Virus record (IMG/VR): IMGVR_UViG_2690316076_000005
Coordinates: 1-37,772 of that record
Source of the DNA: a virus
Taxonomy: Duplodnaviria > Heunggongvirae > Uroviricota > Caudoviricetes
Strand: one strand, 5' to 3'
DNA length: 37,772 nt
Made by a program: the position numbers and the translations under genes. Of the stretch, positions 18,971 to 28,209 are shown in pieces. The notes under the pieces were generated by a model. The model saw only the letters and a list, made by a program, of their open reading frames with translations, ran no database searches and was not told the DNA's origin. How positions within the stretch are numbered: position 1 is the stretch's first letter; every line of letters begins with the position of its first letter.

Positions 18971-19470
18971 GATTCGATGATTTTCAGAAACGGGTTAGTA
19001 GCTTTCTTCTGCCCCGCCAGGCCAATCAGACGCTGGCGGCTGCTGGGGTCGAGTCCGAGCATTGCCCCCGTGCTGCTCATCTCGGACTCCTGTTCTTTTT
19101 TGGCGGTCAGCTCAGGATTTTTGACCATACCGCCCATTGCACCGGTGATGGTGTTGCCCTGTCTGGCAATATTTTTCACGGCACGTCGCCAGAACTCATA
19201 GGCCACACACCACCGCTCAAGCACCGCGAGGTCAGTCACGCACAGCAGGCCCTGACCGCAAAGTTCTTTAGTTGTCAGTTGCCACATGATCGTGGCGAGA
19301 GGGAGATCTTCTTCAGCGAACCACTCCGGTGGCTCAACACCTTTGATGGGCGTAAAAACAGGTTCATCTTTATTCAGGGCTCGCTTGCCGGGGTTTCCGG
19401 CCAGCGCCTTGCGCGCCGTTGGCTTGGGGCGACGCCCGGAACGCCCCGCCGTTCCAGCCATATGCGGCAC
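18967..19470 (-). CDS. terminase small subunit (P27-like)
   Basis: 167 aa; basic N-terminus; overlaps the large subunit start. Confidence 0.75.
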
Positions 19471-19593
19471 TCCTGGTTAAATTTCATTTTTCGCGGGTAT
19501 AAAAAAACGATGGGGCGGGCAGTCCGGAAGGTGCGCGGTCGCAGAGATTTGACCTCCCCCTCCCCCTCCCCTGACTGATGATGACATCAATTC
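19471..19593. other. candidate cos / packaging-site region
   Basis: Intergenic region between HNH and the small terminase gene with GC-rich blocks (ggggcgggcag, tcgcgggt) and a polypyrimidine tract cctccccctccccctcccc. Confidence 0.3.
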
Positions 19594-19944
19594 TCATTTG
19601 AGCCGCTCACGCGCGGTCTTCGCGGCGTGACACGACCAGCACAGGCTTTCAAGGTTGCTGTCTTCATCAGTACCGCCGTGGGCCTTCGCCTTGATGTGGT
19701 CCACGCAGGACGCCTGCTTCACGACTCCCTGCCGAAGATGGTTCTGACATAGTCCTTTGTCGCGCTTAAGTATACGAGCGCGTATGGTGTCCCACTTAGC
19801 GCCATATCCACGCTGATGACGAGATTGTCCCGGTTTGTAGGATTTCCAGCCTTCGCCTTTGTGATTTTCGCAGTAACCTGATGGGTCTGTCGTTGTAAAG
19901 CTGCATCCGCGAACGCGGCAGGCTTTAGGTGTTCGTGGTGGCAT
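19594..19944 (-). CDS. HNH endonuclease (packaging-associated)
   Basis: Start moved to the ATG with SD aggag; C-terminal Cys/His HNH motif (CQNHLRQG...CVDHIKAKAHGGTDEDSNLESLCWSCHAAK); sits immediately upstream of the terminase genes. Confidence 0.85.
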   Translation of the reverse strand: MPPRTPKACRVRGCSFTTTDPSGYCENHKGEGWKSYKPGQSRHQRGYGAKWDTIRARILKRDKGLCQNHLRQGVVKQASCVDHIKAKAHGGTDEDSNLESLCWSCHAAKTARERLK

Positions 19945-19954
19945 TTTTACTCCT

Positions 19955-19985
19955 ACCAAATCACCAGTATTACCAGTGATTTGGT
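19955..19985. repeat. perfect 10-bp inverted repeat with 11-nt loop
   Basis: accaaatcac cagtattacca gtgatttggt; abuts the HNH ribosome-binding site, no U-tract. Confidence 0.5.
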
Positions 19986-20127
19986 ATACTCTTTACAGCG
20001 GTTAGAACTGTAGTAATGGCAATAAAATCATTCCAACAGCAGCTTAATATTGTCATCACAACATTAATAAAGTCAGAAATAGCTATCACTCTTTTCACAA
20101 ACCTCATTATCCAGCAAAGGACTTTTT

Positions 20128-20529
20128 ATGCAAAACAAACATGGCTTTACCTTAATTAAAGCAAAAACAATTAAAAACTCATCAATAACTGGGAACACAT
20201 TTAATGGCTCTATAGATTCTCTAGTGGATGCTGACACGGTTGATAATGTTCGCATAGAAGACAATCTAATAAATGCTTTAGATCTTGAACAAACGCTTGA
20301 AAACTTAAAATCCGCAATTTCAAGTTCCGGACTTGAAAGCAACCTAACACATTGTTTTCACAGCAAAATTGATGATTTAAAAAGAGAAAAAACTAAGCAA
20401 TCCAAGCTTGTGCGTTATAAGGAACTCATGGAGTTAATCAACCTTCACAAAGATTTATTGACGCCAGTATATCCATATCTAGAAAGATTAGCTCAACATG
20501 CGTATCATAATTTGTTGGGTCTGGTGTAG
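20128..20529 (+). CDS. AT-rich reverse-strand moron, hypothetical protein
   Basis: 133 aa; ATG with SD aaagga; opposite strand to the whole late region; AT-rich; no recognisable motif. Confidence 0.5.
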   Translation: MQNKHGFTLIKAKTIKNSSITGNTFNGSIDSLVDADTVDNVRIEDNLINALDLEQTLENLKSAISSSGLESNLTHCFHSKIDDLKREKTKQSKLVRYKELMELINLHKDLLTPVYPYLERLAQHAYHNLLGLV

Positions 20530-20608
20530 TCGATATCATTATACAAGGCATCCCATCAATAAAATTTTACTCAGTTTAAATCATGATGGTGTGGGATTAG
20601 AATTCAAC

Positions 20609-20818
20609 TTACTTGCAATTTTTTTCCCACGCTTTGTTATGCGTTAAGATGTCTTTCTTTGTCTGGCGGTCCATCACCTCAATATCATGTTCAGTGAGGT
20701 AGATGATGCTTACCCAGTCACAGGCCGTGTCCGTTACTTCAGGTTTTGCGGGTAAATTTTTCGCGCAACTCACGGTCAACATCGTCATCAGGAAGATGAT
20801 TAACAGTCTGCTGTACAT
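20609..20818 (-). CDS. small lipoprotein-like protein (o-spanin candidate)
   Basis: 69 aa; ATG with SD aaggag; hydrophobic N-terminus with Cys (LTVSC, imperfect lipobox); start lies inside the upstream Rz-like gene in another frame; not proline-rich. Confidence 0.4.
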   Translation of the reverse strand: MYSRLLIIFLMTMLTVSCAKNLPAKPEVTDTACDWVSIIYLTEHDIEVMDRQTKKDILTHNKAWEKNCK

Positions 20819-21008
20819 CCCTGGCTCCTTTTGTTGTCTCTACCCTGCGTTCCGCAACGGCTTCAGTAGCTGCTGCACGTTCTTCAGTGCGTTGCTGGTT
20901 CGCTTTTGTTTCAGCGATACTGGTACCGCGTGATTTACCCAGACCAAAAGCACCGGCAATTGCTGCCAGCGCGGCAACAATCAGGCCGATAATCATTTCA
21001 AGTCCCAT
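20739..21008 (-). CDS. i-spanin candidate (Rz-like)
   Basis: Start moved to the internal ATG with SD gaggt just after the endolysin stop; MGLEMIIGLIVAALAAIAGAFG transmembrane segment followed by a charged region. Confidence 0.45.
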   Translation of the reverse strand: MGLEMIIGLIVAALAAIAGAFGLGKSRGTSIAETKANQQRTEERAAATEAVAERRVETTKGARDVQQTVNHLPDDDVDRELREKFTRKT

Positions 21009-21015
21009 AGTGACC

Positions 21016-21630
21016 TCACACCAGTGCGGCTTTAGCTTTGGCGTAACGTTCACGGCGGTCGTTAATGCCGTTCTGCCCGCCGTTGATAATCTGCGTGACG
21101 CGCTCCACATCCCCCGAATAGAGAAGGCAACCACGTAACGTGAAGTACCATGCCGCCGAACGGGCCGCATGTCGCTCTTGCGTCAAAAGTTCTGGCGTAC
21201 TGATCAGATCAAGTTTCAGCGCCGCACCGCATTTGGTGTAGTTCTCACGACCAGTGATTTGAAGCAGGCCACGACCGCGATATTTCCAGCCGTCACCCTG
21301 GCTGTTATTCCCCATACGGTCACCGTAAACCAGATTTGCTATTTGTGGCTGGTGAGCGACCTGTTTACCATCGACACGCCCCAGCATTTCGCACTGGTAC
21401 GGCGTCAGGCGCTTACCAAAGGTTTTCTTCAGCCCTTCAACCGAATAGTTAAAACTCTCCGCCAGCGAGGTAAAGCCAGCAGACTCATGCCCGACTTGTG
21501 CAATGAACATGGCCTGATCATTAACTGCTGTAATGCCAAACTCTTTCATTGCCGCATCAATGTGCGGAAACCAGCGTGCAGAAAGCCCGGCGCTTATACC
21601 AGCCGCCTGCTGAAATTGTGATTGGTTCAT
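21016..21630 (-). CDS. endolysin, glycoside hydrolase family 19 type
   Basis: 204 aa; motifs FIAQVGHESAGF and YRGRGLLQITGRENY resemble GH19 chitinase-like lysozymes. Confidence 0.8.
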   Translation of the reverse strand: MNQSQFQQAAGISAGLSARWFPHIDAAMKEFGITAVNDQAMFIAQVGHESAGFTSLAESFNYSVEGLKKTFGKRLTPYQCEMLGRVDGKQVAHQPQIANLVYGDRMGNNSQGDGWKYRGRGLLQITGRENYTKCGAALKLDLISTPELLTQERHAARSAAWYFTLRGCLLYSGDVERVTQIINGGQNGINDRRERYAKAKAALV

Positions 21631-27216: not shown

Positions 27217-28209
27217 TCACCCCCTGAATCCTGCCGGGATCTGGCTGTAGTCCACGTTGTCGTAACTGGCTTTGAAGTACGGGTCTTCACGTTTTTCTGT
27301 GTGCGTGCTGACGGACGGCGATAAGCGCAGGGAAAGCTCATCCCATTTTTCCCGCAACTTCGACGGGCTGAGCACGTTACGGCACCAGAACGGATCGCGG
27401 CTGACGCGGCTGTACATCTCGCAGATTTGTTTGTGAGTACGACCATCCTGCACACACATCAGGCGAATTTCGTTTGCCCATGCTGTCCAGTTCGGCTCTT
27501 TGGGACGAACCACCTCGCCGTCACATTCGGCGGCCTGCTCGTACAGGGCGATGATTTTTTTCCAGAGCCACTGTGCGCAGGTCAAATCATCCTGCGTTCC
27601 CCACTGGCGCTTTTTAGGGCTGAATACAACCGCATCAGGATGGCGAGTTAAAAACTCCTGTTCAGCCGTTTGCATGTCCGGTTGCGAAGCGTCCGGACGA
27701 GAAGAGGTTTTATTCTCTGTAGTAATCTCTGTTGTATTCTCTGTAAGATCATTGGGCCATTTTGACCCGATGACAGCGTGTCGTTTTGAACCAATGGATC
27801 GTGTCATTTTGCGCCCATCCATCAGGTCACTTTGACCCGATGGAGAAGTGCATTTTGACCTGATGGATTCGTTCACTTTGACCTCTTCTAAAAGCTCACT
27901 TTCATAGTTGATCGTGTAGAAGTTGGTCATGTCACGCTTCGATTTATTGAGTTGCTCGCGACGCAAAACCCCAAGTGATTTCAGGCTTGCAAATGTGCGT
28001 TTCAGAGTGGACTCTGACCAGAACGGAAACTGCTCCAGCCACTGTTCTGTCGTGTTATAAACCCAGCGAATTCCGCCATGCTCAGTGCCTGAATTCGTTT
28101 CATTCAGCCAGTAATGAAGCTGCTGCAACACAATTGCCTCATTCAGACCAATACGGCATGCAAGATCACGATTTATCACAATGGGCTGGGATGTCATTAA
28201 CAGGCTCAT
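27217..28209 (-). CDS. replication initiation protein (O-like N-terminus, DnaT-like C-terminus)
   Basis: 330 aa; iteron array inside the gene; C-terminal region resembles the primosomal DnaT-like domain seen in prophage replication proteins. Confidence 0.7.
   Translation of the reverse strand: MSLLMTSQPIVINRDLACRIGLNEAIVLQQLHYWLNETNSGTEHGGIRWVYNTTEQWLEQFPFWSESTLKRTFASLKSLGVLRREQLNKSKRDMTNFYTINYESELLEEVKVNESIRSKCTSPSGQSDLMDGRKMTRSIGSKRHAVIGSKWPNDLTENTTEITTENKTSSRPDASQPDMQTAEQEFLTRHPDAVVFSPKKRQWGTQDDLTCAQWLWKKIIALYEQAAECDGEVVRPKEPNWTAWANEIRLMCVQDGRTHKQICEMYSRVSRDPFWCRNVLSPSKLREKWDELSLRLSPSVSTHTEKREDPYFKASYDNVDYSQIPAGFRG
27758..27883. repeat. iteron array (candidate origin of replication) inside the replication gene
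   Basis: Six copies of about CAyTTTGACCyGATGG at about 23-bp spacing (27758, 27782, 27804, 27828, 27851, 27874) plus one inverted copy (27817-27827). Confidence 0.7.

What the first reader, a model, noticed from the sequence alone, without database searches (positions are those of the whole stretch)
19945..20608. Reverse-strand AT-rich moron between lysis and packaging genes, flanked by a perfect hairpin
Seen in sequence: the only plus-strand gene in the 20-kb late region (133 aa, no motif recognised, AT-rich), with SD aaagga. Upstream lies a perfect 10-bp inverted repeat (19955-19985) that abuts the HNH ribosome-binding site. Inference: a lysogeny-expressed accessory gene in a known moron hotspot next to the packaging site; the hairpin could be an operator or an RNA element.
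Basis: partly seen in the sequence, partly recalled or inferred. Interest (0 to 1): 0.55.

Follow-up and report, generated by a model that had tools for sequence, protein, structure and literature searches.

The report
Antisense accessory gene between lysis and packaging
A prophage of E. coli carries a small, AT-rich accessory gene of unknown function, pointing against the late genes in the variable slot between lysis and DNA packaging; it belongs to a tiny unannotated protein family that always sits there, while the neighbouring hairpin is a degenerate copy of a terminator that related phages have in front of their HNH gene.

Summary
ORF 20128-20529 (+, 133 aa, SD AAAGGA, GC about 0.33 against about 0.55 in the flanks) is the only plus-strand gene in the late region. 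The 10-bp perfect inverted repeat at 19955-19985 abuts the HNH ribosome-binding site.

The ORF is a real gene: dN/dS is 0.19-0.36 between diverged homologues. It has no Pfam, PHROG, NCBIfam or convincing PADLOC match. It belongs to a family of only 7 clusters among 5.8 billion, plus 2 IMG/VR loci. Every family locus long enough to read sits between the spanins and the packaging module, antisense to the late operon, in different phages. A probable sister family of 124 aa does the same. The predicted fold is a two-rung beta-solenoid plus a four-helix bundle.

This is a moron in the slot used by lambda bor and phi80 taiEcA, but it is homologous to neither. Expression in lysogens and any defence role are inferred, not shown.

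The hairpin is not an operator of the moron. It aligns with an intrinsic terminator found just upstream of HNH in about half of 84 relatives, and it folds better as late-strand RNA. Here it has lost the U-tract.

Verdict: ordinary in kind, with a new protein family.

The parts
19594..19944 (-). HNH endonuclease gene, first gene of the packaging module (HNH, TerS, TerL). It is the late-operon gene downstream of the cargo slot.
   Evidence: PF01844 E=1.6e-10 and phrog_144 E=5e-39. Annotated WP_053890679.1.
19950..19953 (-). Shine-Dalgarno sequence (GGAG) of the HNH gene, directly 3' of the hairpin on the late strand.
   Evidence: Sequence. The same GGAG follows the terminator U-tract in relatives (alignment A5).
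19954..19986 (-). Hairpin. As late-strand RNA it forms 15 bp (2 of them G.U) with a 3-nt loop, -20.7 kcal/mol. It is a U-tract-less derivative of the intrinsic terminator conserved upstream of HNH in related phages.
   Evidence: The exact sequence occurs only in loci that also carry this moron: 12 of 111 loci (those 12 include L001 and L005, which are the window's own record), plus L112, found afterwards.
19973..20630 (.). Segment with no similarity to the nearest relative that has both flanks conserved (E. coli C3728). This is the exchanged cargo cassette. The left junction is in the hairpin loop. The right junction is about 20 nt inside the 3' end of the o-spanin gene.
   Evidence: BLASTN: the flanks match at 19400-19972 (82%) and 20631-21630 (93.5%).
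19987..20127 (+). 5' region of the moron, the presumed promoter and leader. Candidate -10 elements are TGgTATACT (19982-19990), TAAAAT (20023) and TAAAGT (20068). None scores above chance.
   Evidence: scores 6.4-7.9; 173 sites score 7 or more in the window on both strands. The consensus scan found none.
20116..20121 (+). Shine-Dalgarno sequence AAAGGA of the moron gene.
   Evidence: Sequence, 6 nt before the ATG.
20128..20529 (+). Moron gene encoding a 133-aa soluble protein (15.1 kDa, pI 6.6, no hydrophobic segment). The predicted fold is a two-rung right-handed beta-solenoid (residues 7-49) plus a four-helix bundle (residues 53-130).
   Evidence: pLDDT 84.5; PF13229 in 4 of 8 family members; purifying selection.
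20589..20640 (+). Terminator-like element for the moron transcript. The arms GTGTGGGA and TCCCACGC enclose an AU-rich inner stem (-17.3 kcal/mol, z -3.9) and are followed by TTTGTTAT. It overlaps the last codons of the o-spanin gene on the other strand.
   Evidence: The simple consensus scan does not list it, because the loop is compound. Homologues in L013, L016 and L019 also have a hairpin and U-rich tail after the gene.
20609..20818 (-). o-spanin (Rz1-like lipoprotein, lipobox LTVSC), the last gene of the lysis cassette. It bounds the slot on the upstream side of the late operon.
   Evidence: phrog_1275 E=3e-31. Not annotated in the RefSeq record.
20739..21008 (-). i-spanin (Rz-like, N-terminal transmembrane segment), overlapping the o-spanin gene.
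   Evidence: ORF list. Annotated as a hypothetical protein of 89 aa.

Best explanation
The segment from about 19987 to 20640 is a self-contained accessory-gene cassette (a moron). It sits in the hypervariable cargo slot between the spanin genes and the HNH-terminase packaging module of an HK97/ST64B-like prophage.

Shown here:
- It encodes a real 133-aa cytoplasmic protein under purifying selection.
- The protein belongs to a very small, unannotated family.
- Every family locus long enough to show its context lies in this same slot, antisense to the Q-dependent late operon, in phages with different packaging and early genes.
- The gene has its own SD and a + strand terminator-like hairpin.

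Inferred:
- It is transcribed on its own in the lysogen from a weak AT-rich promoter.
- It is damped after induction by convergent, antiterminated late transcription, as shown experimentally for phi80 taiEcA.
- The protein has no catalytic motif. It is a beta-solenoid cap on a four-helix bundle, so it probably acts by binding another protein.
- Its most likely role is to protect the lysogen from other phages (exclusion or assembly interference).

The hairpin at 19954-19986 is not part of the moron's control. It is this lineage's version of the intrinsic terminator that precedes the HNH Shine-Dalgarno sequence in about half of the related phages. It keeps the stem but has lost the U-tract through a 3-nt deletion and T-to-G changes. 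It most likely no longer terminates and remains as a leader hairpin of the HNH-terminase message.
For: A real gene:
- dN/dS is 0.19 (L018 vs L020, dS 0.28) and 0.36 (L013 vs L017).
- Full-length homologues at 23-41% identity share the motif K..RYKE..E.I.LH..(V/L).P.

Rarity:
- 4 hits among 1.84 billion representatives.
- 7 clusters among 5.8 billion.
- 1 of 5426 complete E. coli genomes.
- No match in 50,697 phage records or 72,556 plasmids.

Slot and orientation are conserved:
- The window lineage, 10 places.
- An E. coli lambdoid phage with Terminase_2/6.
- A Cronobacter phage.
- L018, after the spanin genes.
- L020, next to DUF2280.
- L106.

Moron hallmarks:
- GC is 0.34-0.40 against 0.43-0.61 in the flanks.
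- The cargo is replaced in relatives.
- There is a + strand terminator-like hairpin.

Fold: AF2 with an 8-sequence alignment gives pLDDT 84.5. PF13229 matches 4 of 8 members, best E 3.4e-5.

Precedent for antisense control: phi80 taiEcA lies upstream of the packaging module, opposite to the late operon. It is made in the lysogen and reduced when Q is expressed (PMC11364771).

Hairpin:
- 42 of 84 relatives have a hairpin plus T-run starting within 40 nt of the HNH ATG.
- The window stem aligns with AAGCCACTGG..CTGGTGGCTTTTTTATTGGAG, including the same U.G and G.U positions.
- It is 6.7 kcal/mol more stable on the late strand.
Against: - No transcript data exist. No promoter candidate scores above chance and the consensus scan found none upstream of the ORF.
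- No homology to any protein of known function. The PADLOC hit to PDC-S73 (E 0.002) is seen only in the two near-identical members.
- The protein is not a Tai homologue (hhalign probability 0.09).
- The exact hairpin variant is found only together with this moron. HNH, hairpin and moron are 99-100% identical in a Citrobacter-type contig whose TerS is only 79% identical. A functional link between the hairpin (or HNH) and the moron therefore cannot be excluded.
- The + strand terminator is a prediction only.
Confidence: 0.6

Rival explanations
1. The palindrome is a DNA operator. A dimeric regulator binds it and controls the moron promoter, which would be the adjacent extended -10 TGgTATACT at 19982-19990.
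For: There is a perfect 10-bp palindrome with arm centres about 21 bp apart, next to an extended -10-like element. The exact hairpin sequence is found only in loci that carry this moron.
Against: - The stem aligns with a terminator that relatives lacking the moron have at the same place.
- The two mismatches of the longer stem are G.U only on the late strand.
- There is no further half-site in the window.
- Other family members have no such repeat before the gene. The sister-family locus L108 has none either.
- The promoter score is not above chance.
Confidence: 0.1
2. The hairpin still works as a weak terminator or attenuator. It limits leaky read-through into HNH-terminase in the lysogen and is overridden by Q-modified polymerase.
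For: It occupies the same position as functional-looking terminators in relatives. The stem is strong at -20.7 kcal/mol. Unscheduled HNH-terminase expression would cut cos in the prophage (established role of HK97-type HNH proteins; my own knowledge).
Against: Only UUU remains of the U-tract, and it lies inside the extended stem. The tail after the stem is GGAGUAAA. With the cargo gene inverted there is no co-directional moron transcript to stop.
Confidence: 0.2
3. The protein serves the phage's own lytic cycle or early infection, for example as a counter-defence factor or a regulator of HNH-terminase, rather than serving the lysogen.
For: HNH, hairpin and moron are inherited as one block at 99-100% identity while TerS is at 79%. 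Most family loci are next to an HNH gene. After cos cleavage the gene would lie within about 1 kb of the right end of virion DNA (position of cos inferred).
Against: - It is antisense to the late operon, so late transcription opposes its expression.
- Two lineages have no adjacent HNH.
- The AT-rich, patchy distribution is typical of dispensable cargo.
- Relatives package without it.
Confidence: 0.12
4. The ORF is a chance or decaying reading frame in AT-rich junk DNA.
For: It has no annotated homologues. One frameshifted variant of 102 aa exists.
Against: - dN/dS is well below 1.
- Diverged full-length homologues have conserved motifs.
- The AF2 model is confident.
- The SD is good.
- The frame is intact on about 150 contigs.
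Confidence: 0.03

Closest known systems
Phage lambda bor (and the moron concept of Juhala/Hendrix)
   Same: A single accessory gene immediately after the Rz/Rz1 spanin genes and before the packaging genes. It lies on the strand opposite to the late operon, is absent from close relatives and differs in base composition. (The position and orientation of bor are from my own knowledge; the slot and composition were measured here.)
   Different: Bor is a lipoprotein of the Bor/Iss family. This protein has no signal peptide or lipobox and no Pfam match. It is predicted to be cytoplasmic.
phi80 taiEcA (orf63), tail assembly inhibition defence; PMC11364771
   Same: [quoted passage not shown] It is produced in the lysogen, and its level drops when Q drives late transcription. 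This is the best experimental model for how the gene studied here is probably regulated.
   Different: There is no sequence or profile similarity (hhalign probability 0.09). TaiEcA is 204 aa and all-helical in appearance. No partner like atiEcA is evident here. The only late-strand ORF next to the gene (45 aa, 19970-20107) has no homologues.
Intrinsic terminator upstream of HNH in HK97/ST64B-like prophages (AAGCCACTGG-loop-CTGGTGGC-TTTTTTATTGGAG)
   Same: Same position, with the stem ending just before the HNH Shine-Dalgarno sequence. It has the same CACTGG..CTGGTG core and the same late-strand-specific G.U pairs.
   Different: The U-tract is lost (TTTTTTATTGGAG has become TTTGGTAGGAG). The G-C pairs at the base of the stem are replaced by A-T pairs, and the stem is extended to 15 bp. 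It does not meet the terminator criteria that 42 of 84 relatives meet.
Sister family of 124-aa proteins (P0022-P0029, e.g. L108 5001-5375)
   Same: Same slot, same antisense orientation, similar size and AT-richness. It has N-terminal NosD/Beta_helix-type repeats followed by helices. hhalign E is 1.8e-4 over 95 columns.
   Different: The hhalign probability is only 49%, so homology is not established. The C-terminal motif differs (SAGANTL..WP against RYKE..E.I.LH). This family is more common, in 15 of 5426 complete E. coli genomes.

Membership tests
Moron (independently transcribed accessory cassette in a prophage) | Present in some phages and absent from close relatives whose flanks are conserved | tested here: met
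   The flanks match C3728 at 82% and 93.5%, while 19973-20630 is replaced by other cargo. ECZP248, EC_J_9 and ST64B also carry other cargo. None of 80 IMG/VR relatives carries the gene.
Moron (independently transcribed accessory cassette in a prophage) | Base composition distinct from the surrounding phage genes | tested here: met
   GC is 0.32-0.36 against 0.52-0.59. The same holds for all homologues.
Moron (independently transcribed accessory cassette in a prophage) | Own promoter | tested here: inconclusive
   Only weak candidates were found, with scores that occur about once per 440 nt in the window. The consensus scan found none.
Moron (independently transcribed accessory cassette in a prophage) | Own terminator | tested here: met
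   The + strand hairpin at 20589-20632 folds at -17.3 kcal/mol (z -3.9) and is followed by TTTGTTAT. This is a prediction only; its function was not measured.
Moron (independently transcribed accessory cassette in a prophage) | Expressed from the repressed prophage | not testable with these tools
   Needs strand-specific RNA-seq or a tagged protein in a lysogen.
Lambda Bor / Iss lipoproteins | Sequence homology and a lipoprotein signal peptide | tested here: not met
   No Pfam match. The highest 19-residue hydropathy is 0.49 and there is no lipobox.
Tai (tail assembly inhibition) defence proteins | Homology to TaiEcA (phi80 orf63) | tested here: not met
   hhalign of the family profile against orf63 gives probability 0.09. 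tblastn of the protein against all phage records gives no match.
Tai (tail assembly inhibition) defence proteins | Blocks tail assembly of infecting phages | not testable with these tools
   Needs plating assays and electron microscopy of lysates.
Known or candidate defence systems (PADLOC-DB) | Significant match to a PADLOC model that is shared by the family | tested here: not met
   PDC-S73 matches at E 0.002 and 0.00044, but only in the two near-identical members. The six divergent members do not match.
Right-handed beta-helix repeat proteins (PF13229 / NosD) | Match to the repeat profile and a solenoid fold | tested here: inconclusive
   Four of 8 family members match PF13229 (best E 3.4e-5) and 3 match NosD, but the window protein itself does not. 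AF2 predicts two rungs at residues 7-49. That is too short to be a normal beta-helix domain.
Rho-independent (intrinsic) terminator, for the hairpin at 19954-19986 on the late strand | Stable stem followed at once by a U-tract | tested here: not met
   The stem is present (-20.7 kcal/mol). The tail after the stem is GGAGUAAA with 1 U in 8. The window fails the criterion that 42 of 84 relatives pass.
Any described RNA family (Rfam 15) | Covariance-model match | tested here: not met
   No match with E up to 1 in 19300-21100 on either strand.

The most novel reading that the evidence does not exclude
The 133-aa protein and its probable 124-aa sister family are a new class of prophage-encoded anti-phage proteins tied to the lysis-packaging junction. 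They would be made in the lysogen and switched off by antisense late transcription. They would work by protein mimicry or sequestration: the two-rung beta-solenoid would dock onto a beta-helical tail-spike or fibre protein, or onto a packaging (HNH-terminase) component, of an incoming phage and poison its assembly. The four-helix bundle would provide oligomerisation. This would be a mechanistic cousin of Tai and Tab with an unrelated fold.
Probability: 0.15. Interest if true: 0.7.

Novelty: new member of a known kind. Interest (0 to 1): 0.38.

Why it matters
If the inference holds, this gene adds an uncharacterised protein family, and probably a sister family, to the cargo of one of the classic prophage hotspots. 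Its position and antisense orientation are unusually strict. That makes it a cheap, well-defined candidate for defence or exclusion screens, and a second natural test case for the 'noncontiguous operon' control described for phi80 tai.

The hairpin result also documents a conserved terminator directly in front of the HNH-terminase genes of HK97/ST64B-like prophages. It shows how that terminator decays when the neighbouring cargo is inverted.

None of this overturns current ideas about prophage organisation.

Tried and rejected
Function by sequence:
- Pfam, PHROGs, NCBIfam and PADLOC gave nothing significant on the protein.
- PADLOC on all family members showed that the PDC-S73 and LmuA hits are not shared.
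- A profile search of PDB sequences gave only weak LRR and coiled-coil noise.

Function by fold:
- The afdb50 library was unavailable.

Tai membership is rejected. Bor membership is rejected. Rfam gave no match.

Promoter search: the consensus scan and my own PWM scan found nothing above background.

A small partner gene:
- The 47-aa + ORF at 20016-20159 has no hits.
- The 45-aa late-strand ORF at 19970-20107 has no PHROG hit and is short enough to be chance.

Looking for the gene elsewhere:
- No match in phage records, plasmids or GTDB species representatives.
- The P0020-type homologue is absent from complete E. coli genomes.

Looking for the hairpin without the moron: it was not found in IMG/VR or in the genome representatives. 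The single metagenome hit also carries the moron.

The idea of an HNH-specific immunity protein (four-helix bundle like colicin Im proteins) was considered but not adopted. Two lineages lack an adjacent HNH, and the structural matches are generic.

Full report
**1. Source and observation**

The window is a prophage of E. coli TH9F11 (NZ_CP054191.1), integrated next to a tRNA-Thr gene and proA. It has an HK97-type head and packaging module: HNH, P27-family TerS, TerL, portal, protease and capsid. It also has a contractile tail. All genes from the Q-like antiterminator through the tail genes run on the minus strand.

- ORF 20128-20529 (+) encodes 133 aa.
- AAAGGA lies 6 nt before the ATG.
- GC drops to 0.32-0.36 over 20000-20600, against 0.52-0.59 on both sides.
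- RefSeq calls the product WP_053890680.1, 'hypothetical protein'. It is the only plus-strand gene inside the late region.
- The inverted repeat (arms 19955-19964 and 19976-19985) is perfect over 10 bp.
- It extends to 16-nt arms at 88% complementarity, the second longest of 11 short-range inverted repeats in the window.
- Its folding energy is matched by none of 200 shuffles on either strand.
- It ends directly at the GGAG of the HNH gene, whose ATG is at 19944.

**2. Is the ORF a gene?**

Yes.
- The exact protein or variants at 90% identity or more form one cluster of 22 sequences. They come from E. coli, Citrobacter freundii and Salmonella Poona. The 15 listed members account for about 150 contigs.
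- One variant is a frameshifted 102-aa form, seen on 2 contigs.
- An exhaustive HMMER search of 1.84 billion representatives found only three more distant relatives.
- A profile search of 5.8 billion clusters found 7 clusters in all, 23-41% identical to the window protein by alignment. Two further loci were found in IMG/VR.
- All are 126-143 aa. They share the C-terminal motif K..RYKE..E.I.LH..(V/L).P and an N-terminal repeat region.
- Nei-Gojobori estimates give dN/dS 0.19 for L018 vs L020 (dS 0.28), 0.36 for L013 vs L017, and 0.05 for L016 vs L019, where dS is saturated.
- The protein is soluble, with no hydrophobic segment and pI 6.6.

**3. What kind of protein?**

- Pfam, PHROGs and NCBIfam give nothing.
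- PADLOC gives PDC-S73 at E 0.002. That hit is confined to the two near-identical members, so I do not count it.
- AlphaFold2 with the 8-sequence family alignment gives mean pLDDT 84.5. Residues 7-49 form two rungs of a beta-solenoid and residues 53-130 form a four-helix bundle.
- The solenoid is supported independently: 4 of 8 members match Pfam Beta_helix (best E 3.4e-5) and 3 match NosD.
- No catalytic motif is evident, so a binding or sequestering role is the most economical guess. This is inference.

**4. Genomic setting**

In all ten places shown for the window protein the order is spanin, this gene on the opposite strand, HNH, TerS. Most of these loci go on to a full-length TerL gene; L007-L010 have a shortened TerL call and L011 has none. 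The early regions and even the Q genes differ among these loci. The divergent homologues sit in the same slot with the same orientation in other phages:
- an E. coli lambdoid phage with Terminase_2/Terminase_6 packaging genes;
- a Cronobacter phage;
- L018, directly after holin, GH19 endolysin and an Rz-like spanin;
- L020, next to a DUF2280 gene and a metallopeptidase gene;
- L106, between HNH and a lysis cassette.

All are AT-rich, 0.34-0.40 against 0.43-0.61 in the flanks.

The slot itself is hypervariable.
- Among 80 IMG/VR relatives retrieved with the HNH protein, none has this family.
- In 34 distinct slots the distance from the o-spanin gene to HNH ranges from 320 to 3250 nt, with unrelated cargo.
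- Complete E. coli genomes and ST64B carry small co-oriented genes or an S1 peptidase there.
- Against the closest relative with both flanks (C3728), similarity stops at 19972 and resumes at 20631.
- On the + strand a compound hairpin at 20589-20632 (-17.3 kcal/mol, z -3.9) is followed by TTTGTTAT. Homologues in L013, L016 and L019 have comparable elements after the gene.

These are the hallmarks of a moron. The one hallmark I could not establish is a promoter. The best candidates are TAAAGT at 20068, the extended -10 TGgTATACT at 19982-19990, and TAAAAT at 20023. Their scores recur about every 440 nt in the window.

**5. A probable sister family**

Three of the variable slots hold a single reverse-oriented ORF of 124-138 aa. 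The 138-aa ORF (L061) shows no similarity to the window family. The other two (L049, L070) are 124-126 aa and have an N-terminal solenoid-like repeat followed by helices.
- They define a second small family of 9 clusters from E. coli, Citrobacter and Salmonella.
- The family lies between the spanin genes and HNH on the opposite strand.
- It is present in 15 of 5426 complete E. coli genomes and absent from phage records.
- Members hit NosD and Beta_helix weakly.
- Profile-profile comparison with the window family gives E 1.8e-4 and probability 49% over 95 columns. This is suggestive, not proof.

**6. The hairpin**

- On the late (minus) strand the RNA forms 15 consecutive pairs, two of them G.U, with a 3-nt loop, at -20.7 kcal/mol. 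On the plus strand those two positions are A.C mismatches and the energy is -14.0 kcal/mol.
- In relatives the same place holds a classical intrinsic terminator just before the Shine-Dalgarno sequence. By a hairpin-plus-T-run criterion, 42 of 84 relatives have one starting within 40 nt of the HNH ATG. By eye, roughly ten more have one 40-70 nt upstream.
- Six relative loci share the core CACTGG..CTGGTG with the window. Alignment A5 places the window stem in register with a broader set of eight sequences of consensus AAGCCACTGG-loop-CTGGTGGC-TTTTTTATTGGAG-N5-ATG.
- Relative to this consensus the window has A-T instead of G-C at the base of the stem, a 3-nt gap in the T-run and T-to-G changes. 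The result is TTTGGTAGGAG.
- It fails the terminator criterion. Rfam has no match and there is no other copy of the half-site in the window.

I conclude that the hairpin is a degenerate terminator belonging to the late transcript, not an operator of the moron.

One caveat remains. The exact variant occurs only with this moron: all 12 loci that carry both, plus one metagenome hit. In that Citrobacter-type contig, HNH is 99.4% identical and the hairpin and moron are 100% identical, while TerS is 78.6% identical. The three therefore travel as one recombination block.

**7. How it probably works**

- Shown: an independently delimited, selected gene sits antisense in the late operon at the lysis-packaging junction.
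- Inferred: it is transcribed in the lysogen and opposed by convergent Q-antiterminated transcription after induction.
- The experimental precedent is phi80 taiEcA. It lies upstream of the packaging module and opposite to the late operon. It is present in the lysogen, its level is reduced when Q is expressed, and it blocks tail assembly of other phages (PMC11364771).
- Lambda bor occupies the same slot and strand (my own knowledge).
- The window protein is homologous to neither.
- A protective role for the lysogen is my preferred reading, at roughly 0.3 for defence or exclusion specifically. It rests only on position and analogy.

**8. Verdict**

The finding is an ordinary kind of object, a moron in a classic hotspot. 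It carries a previously unrecognised, position-locked protein family and sits beside a decayed terminator. I rate interest as moderate to low and novelty as a new member of a known kind.

Noticed in passing
window 20609-20818 (-): An Rz1-like o-spanin gene (lipobox LTVSC, phrog_1275 E=3e-31) is not annotated in the RefSeq record. It overlaps the i-spanin gene (20739-21008), which is annotated only as hypothetical.
   Followed up: partly
window 19970-20107 (-): A 45-aa hydrophobic ORF lies on the late strand between the 5' end of the moron and HNH, and it ends in the hairpin loop. Its relative position matches that of the phi80 counter-defence gene atiEcA next to taiEcA. It has no PHROG hit and only a weak SD, and it may be chance.
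   Followed up: partly
window 19471-19593: The intergenic region between HNH and TerS has a G/C-rich stretch and the run CCTCCCCCTCCCCCTCCCC. This is the expected place of cos in HK97-like phages. It is 89% identical in a contig whose TerS is only 79% identical.
   Followed up: no
L108 5001-5375; L049 3031-3405 (-); L070 2721-3101 (-): A second small family of 124-126-aa proteins has solenoid-like N-terminal repeats and sits in the same slot and antisense orientation. It is present in 15 of 5426 complete E. coli genomes and is possibly related to the window family (hhalign probability 49%).
   Followed up: partly
L061 3013-3429 (-): A 138-aa reverse-oriented ORF (GC 0.38) fills a 545-nt slot between the o-spanin gene and HNH. 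Its upstream 70-mer is shared by 5 IMG/VR loci. It is unrelated to the window family, so it is a third antisense cargo type at this junction.
   Followed up: no
L024 3070-3867 (E. coli C3728): In a close relative the same slot carries an S1 family peptidase gene co-oriented with the late operon, followed by a canonical terminator before HNH.
   Followed up: no
window about 1-523 (L001 1-624): An IS26 transposase gene abuts the tail-fibre assembly genes at the end of the prophage, so the tail-fibre end of the prophage may be truncated.
   Followed up: no
window 27817-27868: A perfect 13-bp inverted repeat with a 26-nt spacer (ATCCATCAGGTCA / TGACCTGATGGAT) lies in the early region near the ymfL-like gene.
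   Followed up: no
L007-L010, 5116-6612: In several loci that carry the moron, the TerL gene is called as 498 aa instead of 577 aa, leaving a gap before TerS. This may be a frameshift or an N-terminal truncation.
   Followed up: no
L110 10005-10375: A TIR_2-domain gene lies in the early region of a prophage that carries the sister-family gene, so defence-type cargo is present elsewhere in these phages.
   Followed up: no
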